A stretch of DNA of 64,000 nucleotides from NCBI GenBank assembly GCA_037431425.1, contig GCA_037431425.1_4129.1; one strand, written 5' to 3'. The translations under genes and the position numbers were made by a program. Under the pieces are notes generated by a model. That model searched no databases and had not been told where the DNA came from. It worked only from the letters and a program-made list of their open reading frames with translations. Shown here piece by piece: positions 3,483 through 62,597 of this stretch. Source of the DNA: a phage. How positions within the stretch are numbered: position 1 is the first letter of the stretch; every line of letters begins with the position of its first letter.

Positions 3483-3490
3483 TATAAATA
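3483..3490 (+). promoter_or_regulatory. T4-type late promoter-like TATAAATA
   Basis: exact TATAAATA about 40 nt upstream of ATG 3529. Confidence 0.4.
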
Positions 3491-8762: not shown

Positions 8763-9388
8763 TGAAGCCACGTTGTATTGTTTTTGATTGTGACGAAGTT
8801 CTATTGGACCACATCGGTATGCTTTCAGAGTATGTTAAACAAACTTATAACATAACCCCATCAACACCATATCCAACAGAATATGACCTATCAGATTGGT
8901 TGGGTGTTCCTCAAACTGAAGTTAAAAAAATTCTTGAACGTTTCAATCAACAATCGTATTTGTTTGGATTGTTAAAACCTGTTGAACCAAATACTGTTGA
9001 TATTGTTCAAGAATTACGTGACCGTTTTTATAAAGAAAAGTTTGTGGTTCTGACAAAATGTGGTAAGAAAGGATATGGTGAAGTTTTGCGTAATGTGAAT
9101 CTCATGCGAGAATTTGGTGAAAATTGTTTTGATGAGATCATCATCATTGAAATGGATGAATCAAAGAAAAAGGCATTGGAGGATTTACAAGATAAGTACG
9201 ATGTGAAATTGATGATTGATGATTATATCAACAACATTGAAACAGCATTGGAGCTTGGTATTCCTTCAGTTATGATGGGATGCTCACATAATACTGCATA
9301 CAGGAACAGTAGTGATTTTGAATATATCGAGAACTGGACCGAGCTTAGACTGAAAATTTATTCAGTTCTGGGTAAATATTATAAATAA
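8762..9388 (+). CDS. HAD-superfamily phosphatase (possible 5'-nucleotidase)
   Basis: N-terminal DxDxV motif FDCDEVLLD; start overlaps upstream stop (TAATG). Confidence 0.55.
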   Translation: MKPRCIVFDCDEVLLDHIGMLSEYVKQTYNITPSTPYPTEYDLSDWLGVPQTEVKKILERFNQQSYLFGLLKPVEPNTVDIVQELRDRFYKEKFVVLTKCGKKGYGEVLRNVNLMREFGENCFDEIIIIEMDESKKKALEDLQDKYDVKLMIDDYINNIETALELGIPSVMMGCSHNTAYRNSSDFEYIENWTELRLKIYSVLGKYYK

Positions 9389-21241: not shown

Positions 21242-21634
21242 ATGAAAAACATTGGCTCTTCTATACAAAAAGACCTTTCATTTTACCTTAATAAATTCAG
21301 AAGTATAAATGGTAATAAATTTAATAGTATCTATCAGTTCACACATAAAGAATATATTACTATTGATCCCTTTTCAAAAAAACTGATGTATGTTAATGAT
21401 AATAATTATAGTGTTAAATTATCATTCGATATTGTGTTAGATAAATTAACATTTACGGAATACACTACCAATAAAACTTCATTTTTACACAAGTATAATA
21501 GAAAGGTATATAATCATATTTCTAGTTATTTAAATGAAGATTATCACTTTCAACAATCTACAATAGAAAAAGTATTATTCAGTACTGAAGAATTAAAAGA
21601 ATTATATTATTGGTATGAGAAATTTACATCTTGA
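21242..21634 (+). CDS. CtFQ-family small protein
   Basis: 130 aa; motif EDYHFQQSTIEKV. Confidence 0.6.
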   Translation: MKNIGSSIQKDLSFYLNKFRSINGNKFNSIYQFTHKEYITIDPFSKKLMYVNDNNYSVKLSFDIVLDKLTFTEYTTNKTSFLHKYNRKVYNHISSYLNEDYHFQQSTIEKVLFSTEELKELYYWYEKFTS

Positions 21635-36013: not shown

Positions 36014-36027
36014 ATAACGGGACAACA

Positions 36028-36143
<116 letters not shown>

Positions 36144-36150
36144 CAAAAGA

Positions 36151-36224
36151 CGGGGTATAGCACAATTGGATAGTGCAAGAGAATTCTAATCTCTAGGTTG
36201 GGGGTTCAAGTCCCTCTACCTCGG
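36151..36224 (+). tRNA. tRNA-Arg (anticodon UCU)
   Basis: manual fold: acceptor CGGGGTA/TACCTCG, anticodon stem AGAGA/TCTCT, loop ATTCTAA, T-loop TTCAAGT. Confidence 0.75.
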
Positions 36225-36248
36225 CCTACTTCAATTAAAGGTTAAACC

Positions 36249-36413
36249 ATGACGCATGAAGAATGGATGAATGACATTAATTTTAGATATGCAGGTATCG
36301 GTAACTGGAGAAAGTATCATTGGGAAATCATATCAGACCCAGCAGAATACGATAAACTTATGAATCATGAAGTGTATCCGTGGTTCTTTATTGAAATAAT
36401 GGTACGATTATGA
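36249..36413 (+). CDS. MTHEEW-family small protein (54 aa), tandem copy 1
   Basis: not in track; MTHEEWMNDINFRYAGIG... Confidence 0.45.
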   Translation: MTHEEWMNDINFRYAGIGNWRKYHWEIISDPAEYDKLMNHEVYPWFFIEIMVRL

Positions 36414-36570
36414 CACATGAAGAATGGATGAATGACATTAATTTTAGATATTCGGGTATCGGTAAATGGCTAAAGTATCATTGGGAATTCATTTCAGAGC
36501 CACATCTGTATGATAAACTTATCAACGATTCTGCATATAAAATGTACTTAATTGAACTACTGGTACGAAC

Positions 36571-36574
<4 letters not shown>
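36410..36574 (+). CDS. MTHEEW-family small protein (54 aa), tandem copy 2
   Basis: MTHEEWMNDINFRYSGIG...; start overlaps upstream stop. Confidence 0.45.
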
Positions 36575-36743
<169 letters not shown>

Positions 36744-36747
36744 AATC

Positions 36748-37188
<441 letters not shown>

Positions 37189-37216
37189 GTATCTTAACAA
37201 CAGAAGGTATATTGAA

Positions 37217-37456
37217 ATGGGTAAGTATTTTGTGAGTTATAGTTATAATGTATCACGAAAGATTCCACGCGGTGACGGAATGGGATGGTCTTATGATGCA
37301 TATACTTTAAATGAGTCATGTATCATCGAATTACAAGAAAAAGACCTTGACATTTTAAAAATCAAACAATATATTCTTGATGTTGAATTGGCACATCGTA
37401 CTGATACCTATCCAGATGTAAACAACATCAGCATCTTAGTACTAACCAAAGTATAA
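37217..37456 (+). CDS. hypothetical protein
   Basis: ATG 37217 after AGAAGG RBS; track start 37187. Confidence 0.5.
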   Translation: MGKYFVSYSYNVSRKIPRGDGMGWSYDAYTLNESCIIELQEKDLDILKIKQYILDVELAHRTDTYPDVNNISILVLTKV

Positions 37457-37526
37457 GATAAAAAGAACTTTACTAAATAATTCCACTGGAGATTAATATG
37501 TTTAAAGATGAACGTCCAGATTTGTA

Positions 37527-37565
<39 letters not shown>

Positions 37566-37571
37566 GAATTC

Positions 37572-37925
37572 CACAATCAGACGTATATGGTGTAAGTTAC
37601 GTCGATGCTATCCAGAACAAGATCTCTGGTACTCTAGGAAGTGGTGAATGTTAACCTAGACGGGTTTGATAATTGGACGATAGGCAATTATTACTTGACT
37701 AGCAGGTTGAAACTAGAGGTGACAGTCCTTCACCAAACTGGAAAGCCGGATGGACTTTTATTTAAAAGGGTAAGGCGTGGAAATATGTTTACTGTAGTTG
37801 CTTTTAGTAGCCTGTACGCCCCACGTCAAGGTAGTCGAAAGGCAAGTTAAAACGGGTGGTTATAAAGCTGAATTAACAGCGGCGTTTAAAAGCGTCACCA
37901 TCCATTTTTTTAATTAAAGTTGGCT
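37572..37925 (+). ncRNA. candidate structured noncoding RNA (unclassified)
   Basis: noticeably more GC-rich than flanks; only a poor 69-codon ORF; directly downstream of consensus promoter; inside tRNA cluster. Confidence 0.3.
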
Positions 37926-37927
37926 AT

Positions 37928-38295
<368 letters not shown>

Positions 38296-38305
<10 letters not shown>

Positions 38306-38324
38306 TATTCAGTACTGATATAAT
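38296..38324 (+). promoter_or_regulatory. sigma70-type promoter (TGGACA-17-TATAAT) for tRNA-Ser
   Basis: -10 ends 6 nt before tRNA 5' end; spacer contains TTCAGTACTG. Confidence 0.55.
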
Positions 38325-38330
38325 TAATTT

Positions 38331-38417
<87 letters not shown>

Positions 38418-38429
38418 TAAATTGTTCCA

Positions 38430-38516
<87 letters not shown>

Positions 38517-38566
38517 CTGATATTGTTATTATATGAGTTCTAACGATAATGAAACACTAGGAACAT

Positions 38567-38737
<171 letters not shown>

Positions 38738-38761
38738 ACGAAATTACAATAGGAAATTAAA

Positions 38762-38947
38762 ATGCAACTTTTAATTCTTTCAATATTGTATATTATTATA
38801 ATGGTTCCGATATCAATACGTTTAATTACAGTTGAACGATTTTTATCGAAACATGGAAATAGATCTATGATATTTGTACCAATCGGGTTGATATTGTTTG
38901 GTATATTTTCATTTATAATGGGAATTAACGCTACATTCATTTCATAG
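38762..38947 (+). CDS. small membrane protein
   Basis: 61 aa, two hydrophobic helices; RBS AGGAAA. Confidence 0.5.
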   Translation: MQLLILSILYIIIMVPISIRLITVERFLSKHGNRSMIFVPIGLILFGIFSFIMGINATFIS

Positions 38948-38956
38948 GAAACAAAT

Positions 38957-39214
<258 letters not shown>

Positions 39215-39316
39215 ATAAAAAGAACGAAAAGTAGACGGTCGTATTCAGTACTGAATCACCAGGGGAGGTTGTGATTCCCGATTCAGTAGCTTAAAAGCAG
39301 ACCCGTATGTGCCTAA

Positions 39317-39369
<53 letters not shown>

Positions 39370-39370
39370 T

Positions 39371-39416
<46 letters not shown>

Positions 39417-39417
39417 T

Positions 39418-39551
<134 letters not shown>

Positions 39552-39553
39552 TA

Positions 39554-39737
<184 letters not shown>

Positions 39738-39817
39738 TAAATAATACAGTAAGATGGCCTCCCCTCCATATCATGAGAGTATAGAGACTTGTTGGTTATC
39801 TTACTTTTAAACAAACT

Positions 39818-39891
39818 GCCTCAATAGCAAAATTGGTAATGCACACGTTTTGTAAGCGTGAGATTTTTCCGTTCGAGTCGGAATTGGGGCA
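39818..39891 (+). tRNA. tRNA-Thr (anticodon UGU)
   Basis: manual fold: acceptor GCCTCAA/TTGGGGC (one GU), anticodon stem CACGT/GCGTG, loop TTTGTAA, T-arm TTCCG-TTCGAGT-CGGAA; variable loop 6 nt (slightly atypical). Confidence 0.65.
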
Positions 39892-39908
39892 CAAAATAAA
39901 GGCACACT

Positions 39909-47260: not shown

Positions 47261-47721
47261 TGATACTACTAGTATTATTATCAAGCCCGTTTGCTTATTT
47301 TATTCTGTATAATATTTTTAGTAATGCTCATCATTTTAAATACGCACAAACAATTGCAAAACATGAAGGATGGTGGCATTTTTTTCCAGCACTACTGTGT
47401 TCATATATGTTCAATGAACGCTATTTTATTTTTCCAGAATATACAAAGTACTATTATGATACTAAAATAAATGGCATAATTGAGTACTGTCTACGTAATT
47501 ATCTGAACAATACAGATAATGTTAAAGTGAATTTATTAAATGGAAATTCACCAAGAATAGTCTTTACATCTTACATAGAAGACCCCATTTACTTATATCT
47601 ATATGATTATAGTATTTCGGTTCGTTGTTCTATGCGTAGTAGTTGTGAGTACTTTATCTTACTACCTACACAAATAAGATTAATAGAAAAATACTTGAAA
47701 TTGATTGACAAAAAAGATTAG
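47260..47721 (+). CDS. membrane-anchored hypothetical protein
   Basis: 153 aa; N-terminal hydrophobic segment. Confidence 0.5.
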   Translation: MILLVLLSSPFAYFILYNIFSNAHHFKYAQTIAKHEGWWHFFPALLCSYMFNERYFIFPEYTKYYYDTKINGIIEYCLRNYLNNTDNVKVNLLNGNSPRIVFTSYIEDPIYLYLYDYSISVRCSMRSSCEYFILLPTQIRLIEKYLKLIDKKD

Positions 47722-47765
47722 TAGGGTTATAATCATAAGACTAACCGACAAAAGAGGAACTGAAA

Positions 47766-48648: not shown

Positions 48649-49070
48649 GAGTATATAATAAAATTTGTATTTTTGTATTTTTAGTTTGTGCGTTCAATTC
48701 CTTTGGCTACTACTGCAACGAAAACAATATTTCATATGGATTAAATCCTTTGTGGTTTTCAATTTCAAATGTAGCTCAAACTGGTATTGCTATTATGTCT
48801 GCCCTTATGTTCTTTCCAATAGTTACGATGGATACTGATTATGAAAGGCTTGGATTTATCCGTGATACTGGTGACGAACCTTACAGTAGATTGATTGTGT
48901 TGTATCCATTTATTGTTATATTAGGTACTAATATCCAACTTGGGTCTTTATCTAATAGTCTTACTTCAGCAGTCATTACCATCTTTGCATTCATATTTTT
49001 TATGGTACACAAATCAGTACTTAAATGGCACATCACTCAATTGGCAGAGAAGGGTACAGAAATCAGTTGA
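48645..49070 (+). CDS. integral membrane protein
   Basis: 141 aa, about 4 TM helices. Confidence 0.55.
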   Translation: MRVYNKICIFVFLVCAFNSFGYYCNENNISYGLNPLWFSISNVAQTGIAIMSALMFFPIVTMDTDYERLGFIRDTGDEPYSRLIVLYPFIVILGTNIQLGSLSNSLTSAVITIFAFIFFMVHKSVLKWHITQLAEKGTEIS

Positions 49071-49129
49071 CGTGATGTATCGAGTCATATATAATTATTA
49101 CATCAAAACGATCAAATGGTAAGGAACTT

Positions 49130-50643: not shown

Positions 50644-50664
50644 TTTCGTCAATAGGAGAAGTAG

Positions 50665-51630
50665 GTGAAAAAACTTGATTTGAATACAATTGCAGATGAA
50701 GTTCTGGATGAATGCTTTGGTAATGAAGAAGTGAATACGCTGGATGCGTTAGAACCAGTTCAAGAAAAAGATAACATTGACGAGAAAAATAATGGTAATT
50801 TCAAGTTTAATATTAGTCTTAAGCGACCAGCAAATGTAACAAATGAAGATATTATTCGTGATATTCAAGCAGGTATTAACGTAAAGAAAAATACTGAACT
50901 ATTAGTTCGTTATAATTACGGTTTGATTATTGATGTTGCAAGTAAATGCACGTGTTATATTCCATTTGAAGATAAGATTTCATATGGCATTGAGGGATTC
51001 ATGCGAGCATTAAAAACATTTGACCTTAGTAAGAATGTAAAGTTCGCTACGTATGCATCGTCAAGTATCTATATGACTGTATACAATGAAAGCTCAGATG
51101 CTAATCATCTGGTCCACTTCCCTCGTTACATGAGTGTTAATAAGATACAAGTGAAACGCTTCTGTCATAATTATGAGCGTCAGCATGGTTGTCGTCCTAC
51201 ACCTGAAATTATTTCTGAAGAGACTGGTATTGAAATCCAGCACGTTAAGAATTGTTTATTATTCCAAAGTGAATATACTTCACTGGATGCACCATTGGAT
51301 GGTGTTTCTGATGGGACGATGAGTGATATTCTGCATTCATCTGAAGGTGATTATAATCTTAATGTTGACAGTATTCGTGCACCGTTGCGTTATACCATCA
51401 ACGAACTAACTAATGAGTTGAGTGCTAAGGAATGTGAGATTATTCAACGTGTTCATGGATTAGGTGAATTTAATCCTGAAACACTACGTGAAATTGCTGA
51501 TAGTGGTTTTATTGATGACAATGGTAAGTGTGTAAAATCCAGATCTTCGGTTCATCGTAAATACAGTGATGCTCTTAAGAAACTCAAGAAATTAGTGCTC
51601 GCTAAAGGGTACGAATACGAAGATTTCTAA
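50665..51630 (+). CDS. RNA polymerase sigma factor, sigma-70 family (regions 2 and 4)
   Basis: 321 aa; GTG start after AGGAGAAG RBS; region 2-like FMRALKTFD...KFATYASSSI and region 4 HTH-like LREIADSGF...SRSSVHRKYSDALKKLKKL. Confidence 0.6.
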   Translation: MKKLDLNTIADEVLDECFGNEEVNTLDALEPVQEKDNIDEKNNGNFKFNISLKRPANVTNEDIIRDIQAGINVKKNTELLVRYNYGLIIDVASKCTCYIPFEDKISYGIEGFMRALKTFDLSKNVKFATYASSSIYMTVYNESSDANHLVHFPRYMSVNKIQVKRFCHNYERQHGCRPTPEIISEETGIEIQHVKNCLLFQSEYTSLDAPLDGVSDGTMSDILHSSEGDYNLNVDSIRAPLRYTINELTNELSAKECEIIQRVHGLGEFNPETLREIADSGFIDDNGKCVKSRSSVHRKYSDALKKLKKLVLAKGYEYEDF

Positions 51631-51636
51631 ATTGTA

Positions 51637-51663
51637 AAGGTTGGCATATGCCAACCTTTTTTA
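51637..51663 (+). terminator. intrinsic terminator
   Basis: AAGGTTGGCAT/ATGCCAACCTT palindrome followed by TTTTTT. Confidence 0.8.
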
Positions 51664-51947
51664 TTGGGACACAGAATAAATATATGATATAATAATTATG
51701 TACAATCCTGTTGAATGCAGAAATGCATATAAATTAGAACCTGATCCTATCGAAAACGTAGATGGCAGATGAGCAGTTCAGCAGTGCGATGAGCAGAAGA
51801 AACCCGTCAGAAGTGGGCATAGTTTGAACCCCTCACGGCAATGCGGCTCAATAAAGAACTCCGATAAGCATACAGAGAGTTCCTAGATAGACATATAAGG
51901 AATCACACCTTACCAGATTTGCTAAGGGAGTCTTGAAATAAGACAGC

Positions 51948-52253
51948 TTGAGCTTTGATTGTATAGAGTTTCAAGTGAGTGCTGGGATGAAAAGACCAGT
52001 GACCGTTGCATATGACCGTGATAGGGAGAAACAGAGCAACCCGCTTCCGTTTGTGATTGATCATTTTAACAATATAGATCCGTCCAAAATTCACGATACA
52101 ATAATATCCGATGCCATCAGCGTCAAGAAGAGACTTAATTGTCTCTTTTTTATTACTTTCATTCCCCTGTGGGGGGATGAAATAGTCCTCAACAAATCCC
52201 GTCAAGTATTAAAAGTCCTAGACAGTTATGAAACATTCGCGTATAATACGTAG
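51948..52253 (+). CDS. questionable ORF in compositionally atypical region
   Basis: 101 aa ORF almost fully overlapped by a 100-aa antisense ORF; region more GC-rich than surroundings. Confidence 0.3.
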   Translation: MSFDCIEFQVSAGMKRPVTVAYDRDREKQSNPLPFVIDHFNNIDPSKIHDTIISDAISVKKRLNCLFFITFIPLWGDEIVLNKSRQVLKVLDSYETFAYNT

Positions 52254-52311
52254 TATTAGAAGCGAACAGACATCTCGAAGAGATGGATGATTAACTATTA
52301 AGGAATATCCA

Positions 52312-62054: not shown

Positions 62055-62124
62055 TTTAACTTTGGGACAAACCTTCCTATAATGATATAATTTTTTTGTC
62101 AGTTTATTTAAATGACATATGAAA

Positions 62125-62132
62125 TATAAATA
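62125..62132 (+). promoter_or_regulatory. T4-type late promoter-like TATAAATA
   Basis: exact TATAAATA 36 nt upstream of ATG 62168. Confidence 0.4.
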
Positions 62133-62589: not shown

Positions 62590-62597
62590 TATAAATA
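62590..62597 (+). promoter_or_regulatory. T4-type late promoter-like TATAAATA
   Basis: exact TATAAATA 19 nt upstream of ATG 62616. Confidence 0.4.

What the first reader, a model, noticed from the sequence alone, without database searches (positions are those of the whole stretch)
50665..51630. Phage-encoded sigma-70-family sigma factor, distinct from T4 gp55
The 321-aa protein has region 2-like (FMRALKTFD...KFATYASSSIYM) and region 4 HTH-like (TLREIADSGF...SRSSVHRKYSDALKKLKK) segments typical of sigma-70-family proteins, unlike the small T4-type late sigma gp55 as I recall it. It has its own GTG start, strong RBS and a strong terminator, suggesting that this phage redirects host RNA polymerase with a bona fide sigma-70 paralogue whose promoter specificity is unknown.
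Basis: partly seen in the sequence, partly recalled or inferred. Interest (0 to 1): 0.6.

Follow-up and report, generated by a model that had tools for sequence, protein, structure and literature searches.

The report
Jumbo-phage RpoD-like sigma factor gene
This is the already-annotated sigma-70-family sigma factor gene of a 121Q/PBECO4-like jumbo coliphage; it probably redirects the host RNA polymerase to a phage-specific class of "middle" promoters, but nobody has tested that.

Summary
Window 50665-51630 (+) is a 321-aa GTG-start ORF with an AGGAGA ribosome-binding site and a strong terminator. It matches Sigma70_r2 and Sigma70_r3 above Pfam cut-offs, aligns without gaps to E. coli sigma70 residues 373-576, and models as sigma domains 2, 3 and 4.

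It is not new. The window is an Asteriusvirus (98.8% identical to phage ph0011). [quoted passage not shown] The phage also carries a separate gp55-like late sigma, outside the window.

What I add:
- The protein has lost most sigma70 base-reading residues: the W433/W434 dyad, Q437, T440, H455, E458, E585, R588 and Q589.
- It carries a clade-wide insertion of about 9 residues, modelled as a beta-hairpin, in the region 4.2 helix-turn-helix.
- The genome holds a promoter class, G[AG]GACA-N16-TGnTATAAT, upstream of replication genes, tRNAs and the gp55-like gene.
- The -35 half of that class changes between genera together with the sigma recognition helix, while TTGACA-type early promoters stay constant.

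My inference is a cascade: host sigma70, then this sigma, then gp55-like sigma. It is untested.

The parts
47705..47733 (+). Host-type (class A) promoter TTGACA-N17-TATAAT, 12/12. It is the nearest perfect consensus promoter upstream of the operon that ends with the sigma gene.
   Evidence: No + strand terminator was found between it and 51636.
49067..49095 (+). Host-type promoter TTGACG-N17-TATAAT (11/12), internal to the same operon.
50654..50659 (+). Ribosome-binding site AGGAGA, 5 nt before the GTG start.
   Evidence: Read directly from the sequence.
50665..51630 (+). Sigma-70-family sigma factor gene: 321 aa plus stop, GTG start.
   Evidence: 99.7% identical to ph0011 WAE77363.1 'RNA polymerase sigma factor'.
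50665..50829 (+). N-terminal acidic segment (aa 1-55). It carries the clade-conserved motif MKKLDLNxIxxEVLDECF, is predicted disordered, and has unknown function. A role like sigma70 region 1.1 is my speculation.
   Evidence: Alignment A1; pLDDT below 50 for residues 1-51. By my count from the sequence, residues 1-50 hold 13 D/E and 5 K/R.
50842..51105 (+). Sigma domain 2 (aa 60-147; regions 1.2(part)-2.4). It keeps N383, D403, F419, F427, T429 and Y430 (sigma70 numbering). It replaces W433/W434 with S/S, R436 with Y, Q437 with M, T440 with Y and R441 with N.
   Evidence: Pfam r2; hhalign register; alignment A1; helices in the AF2 model.
51124..51261 (+). Sigma domain 3 (aa 154-199). The extended -10 readers H455 and E458 are replaced by Y155 and V158.
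   Evidence: Pfam r3 3.5e-10.
51385..51606 (+). Sigma domain 4 (aa 241-314).
   Evidence: AF2 pLDDT about 85-89. Domain-only model pLDDT 84.8, pTM 0.75. The best structural matches are all sigma region 4: 6fi7, 6omf (TM 0.71, rmsd 1.7 A) and 1ku7.
51505..51540 (+). Insertion of about 9 extra residues within aa 281-292 (GFIDDNGKCVKS), in the turn of the region 4.2 helix-turn-helix. It is modelled as a beta-hairpin and is conserved across the clade as G-x-x-D-x-x-G-K-x-x-x-S.
   Evidence: Cellular sigmas stop aligning at about residue 278-281.
51541..51567 (+). Start of the recognition helix, R293 S S V H R K Y S301, which aligns to sigma70 R584 E R I R Q I E A592. R584 is kept; E585 becomes S, R588 becomes H and Q589 becomes R.
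   Evidence: The register was placed by hand on the flanking conserved xALxKL motif and the AF2 helix.
51636..51659 (+). Intrinsic terminator that closes the operon.
51666..51693 (+). Class C promoter GGGACA-N16-(TGa)TATAAT immediately after the terminator; a candidate target of this sigma. The arrangement sigma gene, then a class C promoter of the genus's own type about 30 nt past its stop, is the same in TH47 and RaK2.
36019..36046 (+). Class C promoter GGGACA-N16-(TGa)TATAAT, ending 11 nt before tRNA-Ser (36057).
62064..62091 (+). Class C promoter GGGACA-N16-(TGa)TATAAT.

Best explanation
The gene encodes a divergent sigma-70-family sigma factor with domains 2, 3 and 4 and an acidic N-terminal tail. 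Shown here: its identity, its domain structure, and its position as the last gene of an operon served by consensus host-type promoters (TTGACA-N17-TATAAT). Inferred: it is made early by host sigma70 holoenzyme, binds host core RNA polymerase, and directs it to a phage-specific 'middle' promoter class, G[AG]GACA-N16-TGnTATAAT. The remodelled region 4.2 would read the altered upstream half of the -35 hexamer (GRG instead of TTG). In that region R584 is kept, E585/R588/Q589 become S/H/R, and a beta-hairpin is inserted in the HTH turn. The retained pockets for the flipped bases (Y430, F419, N383 and others) would still read TATAAT. Class C promoters sit in front of replication and nucleotide-metabolism genes, the tRNA cluster and the gp55-like late sigma gene. 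The result would be a three-step cascade: host sigma70, then this sigma, then gp55-like sigma acting on T4-like ATAAATA late promoters. In this cascade the sigma would do the job that MotA/AsiA do in T4.
For: Identity.

Early context: 33 near-consensus sigma70 promoters on the + strand of the window against 1 on the - strand, with 47705 and 49067 upstream of the gene. Class A promoters also lie upstream of the sigma gene in TH47 and CBB.

Specificity residues are changed, so unchanged sigma70 specificity is unlikely.

Class C is real:
- The strict pattern occurs 13 times on the + strand of the ph0011 genome, 0 on the - strand, and 0.1 in shuffles.
- It is tied to the spacing: 16 hits at N16 and about 0 at N12-15 or N19-22.
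- An unbiased hexamer count recovers GGGACA.
- 18 of 19 members have G at -14.

Location: class C lies upstream of nrdD, the gp55-like sigma gene, the DNA polymerase operon, FEN, gp32, primase, an exonuclease, gyrB and tRNAs.

Covariation: orthologous promoters read GRGACA in ph0011 and in TH47 (same recognition helix, different spacers), TGAAC[AG] in a RaK2-like genome (23 on +, 2 on -), and TGAAAC in CBB (PMC5259590). The recognition helix differs at the DNA-contacting positions: R-S-S-V-H-R, R-G-T-L-H-Y and K-A-T-L-S-R. TTGACA-type promoters are the same in both genomes compared.

A gp55 homologue exists to read the late promoters. phmmer found no MotA or AsiA homologue.
Against: There is no transcript, start-site or biochemical data for any Rak2-like coliphage, so every promoter here is an in-silico call.

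Class C has a perfect sigma70-type extended -10 (TGnTATAAT). Host sigma70 can use such promoters without a -35 element. This sigma lacks H455 and E458, which read TG in sigma70, and the W433/W434 melting dyad.

An unidentified phage DNA-binding activator would covary between genera just as well. The MotA/AsiA search used single sequences only.

The recognition-helix register rests on a hand alignment and an AF2 model.

In the RaK2-like genome the promoter before the gp55-like gene matches the genus motif only 5/6 and lacks G at -14.

Binding to E. coli core polymerase is assumed. Region 2.2 is only partly conserved: D403 is kept, while Q406, E407 and N409 are not.
Confidence: 0.55

Rival explanations
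1. Class C promoters are read by host sigma70 through its regions 2 and 3 (TGnTATAAT), helped by an unidentified phage activator or co-activator that binds the genus-specific hexamer, as in T4 MotA/AsiA sigma appropriation. The phage sigma then serves some other promoter set, or host genes.
For: Class C carries an obligatory canonical extended -10 and a perfect TATAAT, which is exactly what sigma70 reads. The phage sigma lacks H455, E458, Q437 and T440. From my own knowledge of T4: its middle promoters likewise combine a host -10, often with TGn, and a phage-specific upstream box.
Against: phmmer found no AsiA or MotA homologue. The hexamer sits at the canonical -35 position (16-17 nt from the -10 element) and keeps the AC(A) half that R584 contacts, unlike the MotA box at -30. 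This reading leaves the conserved, early-expressed sigma without a promoter class, because classes A and D are otherwise accounted for.
Confidence: 0.2
2. The protein is a functional replacement or booster for host sigma70. It reads the same TTGACA/TATAAT promoters, which are very abundant in this genome, and keeps phage early transcription going after host sigma70 is inhibited or outcompeted.
For: The best sequence matches are RpoD and RpoS. The ph0011 genome has 106 near-consensus sigma70 promoters on the + strand. R584, Y430 and the flipped-base pocket residues are retained.
Against: E585, R588, Q589, Q437, T440, H455, E458, W433 and W434 are all replaced, and the HTH turn carries an insertion of about 9 residues. 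The recognition helix varies between genera while class A promoters and host sigma70 do not.
Confidence: 0.12
3. The protein acts mainly as a competitor or decoy. It occupies core RNA polymerase, or binds a host factor through its conserved acidic N-terminus, to shut off host transcription or reprogram host genes, without directing a phage promoter class.
For: The W433/W434 melting dyad is lost. A conserved N-terminal motif of unknown function is present. Some phage sigmas are dispensable and act on host programmes (PMC9429907).
Against: All DNA-binding domains are maintained with high model confidence across a clade that has diverged to about 27-30% identity. A matching orphan promoter class exists.
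Confidence: 0.08

Closest known systems
RpoD-like sigma factor of Rak2-like / 'group 2' jumbo phages (121Q gp167, PBECO4, phAPEC6, Sharanji WNN14470.1, CBB_513, RaK2 ORF244; PHROG 351)
   Same: It is this protein. Identity is 99.7% to ph0011, 83% to 121Q/PBECO4, 43% to RaK2 and 34-36% to CBB/GAP32, over the full length including the N-terminal motif and the HTH insertion. It sits in the same place, among small early genes.
   Different: Nothing material. None of these proteins has been characterised experimentally. The literature says only that they 'likely' recruit host RNAP (PMC7824862, PMC11895373, PMC13282480).
E. coli sigma70 / sigmaS (group 1/2 sigma factors)
   Same: Regions 2.1 to 4.2 (first helix) align without gaps (sigma70 373-576). 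The fold of domains 2, 3 and 4 matches. N383, D403, F419, F427, T429, Y430, P453 and R584 are kept.
   Different: There is no region 1.1 or non-conserved region, and a different acidic N-terminus instead. W433, W434, R436, Q437, T440, R441, H455, E458, E585, R588 and Q589 are replaced. The HTH turn has an insertion of about 9 residues. The protein scores far below the NCBIfam RpoD and RpoS cut-offs and below the Pfam r4 cut-off.
T4 MotA/AsiA middle-promoter system (sigma appropriation)
   Same: The proposed role is the same: an early phage product switches host RNAP to middle promoters that keep a host-like -10 (often TGn) but carry a phage-specific upstream element, and these promoters drive replication genes and the late-sigma gene. 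This comparison rests on my own knowledge of T4.
   Different: T4 remodels host sigma70 and adds no new sigma. Here a complete sigma is encoded and no MotA or AsiA homologue was found. The element lies at -35 rather than at -30.
Bacillus phage SPO1 gp28, then gp33/gp34 (phage sigma cascade)
   Same: The logic is the same: host sigma first, then an early-encoded phage sigma for middle genes, then a late sigma (PMC9429907, PMC13401047).
   Different: From my own knowledge, SPO1 sigmas are small and highly divergent and use -35 and -10 elements unlike the host's. Here the -10 stays host-like, and the late sigma is of the T4 gp55 type.
T4 gp55 late sigma
   Same: Both are phage-encoded specificity factors for host RNAP.
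   Different: They are unrelated in sequence (E=0.78 on this protein). gp55 is a minimal domain-2-only factor. The phage has its own gp55 homologue elsewhere, at ph0011 193825-194664.

Membership tests
Sigma-70 family | Region 2 (core binding and -10 recognition) matches the family model. | tested here: met
   PF04542 scores 25.7 bits against a cut-off of 24. All 28 clade members match. Invariant N383, D403, F427 and P453 equivalents, and nearly invariant T429 and Y430 equivalents, are present.
Sigma-70 family | Region 3 matches the family model. | tested here: met
   PF04539 scores 40.3 bits against a cut-off of 25.3. 23 of 28 clade members match.
Sigma-70 family | Region 4 (helix-turn-helix for -35 recognition) matches by sequence. 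| tested here: not met
   PF04545 scores 16.5 bits, below the 24.1 cut-off, and only profile positions 4-28 of 50 align. Only 10 of 28 clade members match at E<0.01. The cause is an insertion in the HTH turn.
Sigma-70 family | Region 4 fold is present. | tested here: met
   The domain-only AF2 model has pLDDT 84.8 and pTM 0.75. All top Foldseek hits are sigma region 4, for example 6omf_F with TM 0.71 and rmsd 1.7 A. E-values are weak (0.04-0.5) because the domain is small.
Sigma-70 family | Binds core RNA polymerase and confers promoter-specific initiation. | not testable with these tools
   Needs a pull-down and in vitro transcription.
Group 1/2 (RpoD/RpoS-type) sigma | Conserved base-reading residues: W433/W434, Q437/T440, H455/E458, R584/E585/R588/Q589. 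| tested here: not met
   Only R584 is kept, along with Y430. The others read S, S, M, Y, Y, V, S, H and R.
Group 1/2 (RpoD/RpoS-type) sigma | Reaches the NCBIfam RpoD or RpoS model cut-offs. | tested here: not met
   RpoD_Cterm scores 85 bits against 354; rpoS_proteo scores 70 against 379.
Rak2-like jumbo-phage sigma clade (PHROG 351) | Full-length similarity, including the N-terminal MKKLDLN..EVLDECF motif and the GxxDxxGKxxxS insertion. | tested here: met
   phrog_351 3e-53. 16 clusters (50% identity) score below 1e-30, and a score gap from 1e-28 (last clade member) to 2.8e-20 (first cellular sigma) separates the clade. Alignment A1.
T4 gp55 late sigma family | Similarity to the gp55 profile. 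| tested here: not met
   The gp55 HMM gives E=0.78 on this protein. The same HMM gives 1.7e-11 on another ORF of the ph0011 genome, which also matches phrog_12791 and phrog_234.

The most novel reading that the evidence does not exclude
This clade of jumbo-phage sigmas uses a remodelled region 4.2 (a beta-hairpin in the HTH turn and altered recognition-helix residues) to read a genus-specific -35 hexamer: GRGACA in Asteriusvirus, TGAACA in RaK2-like phages and TGAAAC in CBB. The hexamer works together with a host-like extended -10. The sigma thereby forms the middle step of a three-sigma cascade (host sigma70, then the RpoD-like sigma, then the gp55-like sigma) and replaces the MotA/AsiA mechanism of T4. 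The sigma and its promoters would have co-evolved across genera, which gives a natural system for studying how -35 specificity is rewritten.
Probability: 0.5. Interest if true: 0.55.

Novelty: already known. Interest (0 to 1): 0.3.

Why it matters
The gene itself is ordinary for this phage group and is already annotated. What remains open is how Rak2-like jumbo phages, which lack their own RNA polymerase, time their roughly 600 genes. The comparison done here turns the literature's statement that the sigma 'likely recruits host RNAP' into a concrete prediction: this sigma reads G[AG]GACA-N16-TGnTATAAT promoters, including the one before the late-sigma gene. Swapping recognition helices between genera should then swap -35 preference. 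If that holds, it gives a natural series of -35 specificity variants on one scaffold, which would be useful for orthogonal transcription parts. It would also explain middle-gene control in a phage group used for therapy.

Tried and rejected
- The published CBB/GAP32 -35 motif TGAAACG is not enriched in this window (8 found, 8.4 expected) and never pairs with TATAAT. The Asteriusvirus equivalent turned out to be GRGACA.
- The generic promoter scanner showed no overall enrichment around the gene at its loose threshold (54 found, 62.7 expected). Only the strict matches and the strand asymmetry were informative.
- T4 gp55 by tblastn found nothing in ph0011.
- My first gp55 HMM search was a false negative, because my greedy ORF set had dropped the real gene. 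Rerunning on all stop-to-stop ORFs found it.
- PHROG scans of 20 proteins in the replication module did not find gp55. A synteny clue from the Atu_ph07 paper (the gene lies next to gp46/gp47) did.
- phmmer with T4 AsiA and MotA gave no hits. This was a single-sequence search, so distant analogues are not excluded.
- Rfam found nothing meaningful in the 0.7 kb downstream of the gene.
- I considered that the RpoD-like sigma might read the late ATAAATA promoters. I rejected this because a gp55 homologue is present.
- I considered the Asteriusvirus 'class B' promoters (TACTTGCA-N16-GTATAAT) as targets. This seems less likely: they lose the C that R584 contacts and look like a recently duplicated cassette array at ph0011 5-24 kb.
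- TATAAATA is not enriched in the window as a whole (6 found, 12.8 expected).

Full report
**1. Observation**

Window 50665-51630 (+) is a 321-aa ORF that starts with GTG. AGGAGA lies 5 nt upstream, at 50654-50659. A terminator with a 10-bp stem and a T-run follows at 51636-51659. The start is supported by the N-terminal motif MKKLDLNxIxxEVLDECF, which is conserved in 28 homologues. The gene lies 21 nt after the previous ORF. No + strand terminator was found between the consensus promoters at 47705 (TTGACA-N17-TATAAT, 12/12) and 49067 (11/12) and the terminator at 51636. So it is the last gene of an operon driven by host-type promoters.

**2. Identity of the protein**

- Pfam: Sigma70_r3 3.5e-10 and Sigma70_r2 1e-5, both above their curated cut-offs. 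Sigma70_r4 reaches only 16.5 bits against 24.1 and covers only the first half of the model.
- PHROG_351 'RNA polymerase sigma factor': 3e-53.
- NCBIfam: the best models are RpoD_Cterm and RpoS, but they score far below their cut-offs.
- Solved structures by sequence: RpoD, SigA, SigB and RpoS at 1e-16 to 1e-11, always ending at query residue 278-281.
- A profile of the phage clade aligns to E. coli sigma70 residues 373-576 with 99.5% probability and essentially no gaps.
- The full-length AF2 model (mean pLDDT 73.5) has helical domains at 60-147, 154-199 and 241-314, a disordered segment at 1-51, and a low-confidence linker at 200-240.
- Foldseek's top 50 PDB hits are all sigmaS, sigmaA or sigma70.
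- The C-terminal 86 residues modelled alone (pLDDT 84.8, pTM 0.75) match only sigma region 4 structures, for example 6omf at TM 0.71 and rmsd 1.7 A.

The sigma identity is secure.

**3. Source and prior knowledge**

The window is 98.8% identical to Escherichia phage ph0011 (Asteriusvirus, the 121Q/PBECO4 group), with some indels. The protein is 99.7% identical to ph0011 WAE77363.1, annotated 'RNA polymerase sigma factor'. It is 83% identical to the 121Q, PBECO4 and phAPEC6 proteins, 57-71% to other coliphage lineages, 43% to RaK2, 34-36% to GAP32, CBB and BF, and 30% to XaC1. Nearly all of these are annotated as sigma factors. An identical sequence is in NCBI nr. An exhaustive HMMER scan finds a compact clade: 16 clusters (at 50% identity) score below 1e-30, the last clade members reach 1e-28, and the cellular sigmas start at 2.8e-20.

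The literature already covers this protein:
- Iyer et al. 2021 make phage sigmas, a minimal gp55 type and an RpoD-like type, a defining trait of group 2 jumbo phages (PMC7824862).
- Buttimer et al. 2017 placed CBB_513 in the presumed early region (PMC5259590).
- The Sharanji and phAPEC6 papers mention it (PMC11895373, PMC7247149).

I found no experimental work on it. The finding is therefore already known as an annotation.

**4. Relation to gp55**

- ph0011 193825-194664 (279 aa, annotated 'hypothetical protein') matches phrog_12791 'sigma factor for late transcription' at 5e-154 and phrog_234 at 3e-17.
- It matches a T4-family gp55 HMM at 1.7e-11.
- It matches cyanophage gp55 by tblastn at about 1e-8.
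- It lies next to gp47 and gp46 homologues, as in T4.
- T4-like ATAAATA motifs are the most enriched 7-mer upstream of ph0011 genes and precede structural genes.

Late transcription is therefore accounted for without the RpoD-like sigma.

**5. Unusual features of the protein**

In the register, the family keeps N383, D403, F419, F427, T429, Y430 and P453 (sigma70 numbering). In this phage the following are replaced: W433/W434 by S/S, R436 by Y, Q437 by M, T440 by Y, R441 by N, H455 by Y and E458 by V.

In region 4.2 the first HTH helix (TLREIAD) aligns. An insertion of about 9 extra residues follows (the segment GFIDDNGKCVKS, aa 281-292, in place of sigma70's short turn), modelled as a beta-hairpin. 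The recognition helix then reads R293-S-S-V-H-R-K-Y, where sigma70 has R584-E-R-I-R-Q-I-E.

From established sigma70 work, cited from my own knowledge:
- R584 reads the C of TTGACA.
- E585, R588 and Q589 read the TTG half.
- Q437 and T440 read position -12.
- H455 and E458 read the TG of the extended -10.
- W433 wedges the upstream fork of the bubble.
- Y430 takes the flipped A at -11.

So the pockets for the flipped -10 bases and the 'ACA' contact are kept, and most other base readers are changed.

**6. Promoter classes**

I assembled the full ph0011 genome.

- **Class A:** TTGACA-N16-18-TATAAT. At 11/12 or better there are 106 on the + strand and 8 on the - strand. In the window the count is 33 against 1.
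- **Class B:** about 20 cassette-like copies of aaaaaGTACTTGCA-N16-GTATAAT-gttttACATCA at ph0011 5-24 kb.
- **Class D:** the late ATAAATA motif.
- **Class C:** G[AG]GACA-N16-TGnTATAAT.
  - The strict pattern occurs 13 times on the + strand, 0 on the - strand and 0.1 in dinucleotide shuffles.
  - There are 16 hits at spacer 16 and about 0 at spacers 12-15 and 19-22.
  - An unbiased hexamer count recovers it.
  - 18 of 19 members have G at -14.
  - It lies upstream of nrdD, the gp55-like sigma gene (GGGACA-N16-TATAAT at 193740), the DNA polymerase operon, FEN/RNase H, gp32, primase, an exonuclease and gyrB.
  - In the window it lies at 36019-36046 (11 nt before tRNA-Ser), at 51666-51693 (right after the sigma terminator) and at 62064-62091.

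**7. Comparative test**

- In a RaK2-like genome (OU509535.1; its sigma is 43% identical), orthologous positions carry TGAAC[AG]-N16/17-TGaTATAAT. There are 23 on the + strand and 2 on the - strand, and only at those spacings. They lie before the DNA polymerase operon, FEN, gp32 (two sites), the helicase/primase genes, the exonuclease, the clamp-loader region and the tRNA region.
- In CBB the same positions carry TGAAAC-N17-TG[ag]TATAAT, at 8 sites in 50 kb. This agrees with the published TGAAACG motif, which was also reported before the CBB gp55-like gene (PMC5259590).
- In TH47 (sigma 57% identical, with the same R-S-S-x-H-R-K-Y helix), 7 orthologous sites keep GRGACA-N16 although their spacers differ.

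Aligned on the invariant AC, the upstream triplet and the helix positions equivalent to sigma70 R584-E585-R586-I587-R588-Q589 are:

| Sigma | Upstream triplet | Helix positions 584-589 |
|---|---|---|
| sigma70 | TTG | R-E-R-I-R-Q |
| Asteriusvirus | GRG | R-S-S-V-H-R |
| RaK2 | TGA | R-G-T-L-H-Y |
| CBB | GAA | K-A-T-L-S-R |

(Helix residues.) Class A promoters, including their spacer motif, are the same in ph0011 and the RaK2-like genome.

The arrangement 'sigma gene, then a class C promoter of the genus's own type about 30 nt past its stop' is shared by the window, TH47 and RaK2. Class A promoters precede the sigma gene in the window, TH47 and CBB.

**8. Interpretation**

Shown:
- It is a sigma-70-family protein with altered specificity determinants, sited in an early-type operon.
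- A distinct, spacing-locked promoter class sits in front of middle-type genes and the late-sigma gene.
- The -35 half of that class covaries between genera with the sigma's recognition helix.

Inferred:
- The sigma binds host core polymerase and reads class C, giving a cascade from sigma70 to this sigma to the gp55-like sigma.
- This would be the functional counterpart of T4 MotA/AsiA, for which phmmer found no homologue.

Main weakness: class C has a textbook sigma70 extended -10, and this sigma lacks the residues that sigma70 uses for TG. Host sigma70 plus an unknown activator therefore remains a real rival. There are no start-site data. In the RaK2-like genome the promoter before the gp55-like gene matches the genus motif only 5/6.

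**9. Verdict**

The feature is already known and annotated, so interest is modest. The open and now sharply testable question is the sigma's promoter specificity.

Noticed in passing
window, whole length (e.g. 37551, 38310, 54057; 12-bp form TTCAGTACTGAA at 21578, 35345, 39244, 41158): The 8-bp palindrome CAGTACTG occurs 31 times in the window against 0.66 expected. AGTACT occurs 127 times. It often lies in the spacer just upstream of the -10 of early-type promoters, and the same spacer motif is present in the RaK2-like genome. It could be an operator for a dimeric regulator or another DNA-binding or modification target.
   Followed up: partly
window 51702-52214 (within the unannotated stretch 51631-52311): A repeat of about 0.5 kb downstream of the sigma gene has four copies in the ph0011 genome: near 314.8 kb, 198.6 kb (94% identical), 116.4 kb (77%) and 61.2 kb (partial). 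Each copy lies directly behind a class C promoter. Rfam finds nothing, and the one annotated ORF in a copy (ph0011 198818-199108) has no PHROG match. UE-S1 annotates it only as 'repeat_region'. It could be a non-coding RNA or a small-gene cassette.
   Followed up: partly
ph0011 193825-194664 (outside the window): The gp55-type late sigma factor of this phage is annotated only as 'hypothetical protein' in ph0011 and several relatives. It lies next to gp47 and gp46 homologues, as in T4.
   Followed up: yes
window, + strand throughout (e.g. 11573, 13995, 30976, 31523, 35474, 35618, 39495, 40621, 45869, 47705, 54043, 57998): The density and strand bias of consensus sigma70 promoters are extreme: 33 sites at 11/12 or better on the + strand against 1 on the - strand, 12 of them perfect (12/12). 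Several lie inside ORFs.
   Followed up: partly
ph0011 about 5-24 kb (outside the window): An array of about 20 near-identical cassettes. Each has an A-rich upstream element, TACTTGCA-N16-GTATAAT, a conserved start region gttttACATCA, a G/C stem-loop and a tiny ORF. It looks like a recently amplified early-gene family.
   Followed up: partly
window 36057-39892: A cluster of six tRNA genes: Ser-tga, Arg-tct, Ser-gct, Met-cat, Asn-gtt and Thr-tgt. Small ORFs and an HNH endonuclease lie among them. The first tRNA starts 11 nt after a class C promoter.
   Followed up: partly
window 3483-3490, 9380-9387, 62125-62132, 62590-62597: T4-late-like TATAAATA motifs sit in intergenic gaps, two of them before genes annotated as structural. 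The motif is not enriched in the window as a whole (6 found, 12.8 expected).
   Followed up: partly
ph0011 213490-213792 (outside the window): A 100-aa protein just upstream of the DNA polymerase gene matches PHROG 639 'transcriptional regulator' (1.5e-7). A class C promoter precedes it in ph0011, the RaK2-like genome and CBB. It may be another transcription factor, perhaps gp33-like.
   Followed up: no
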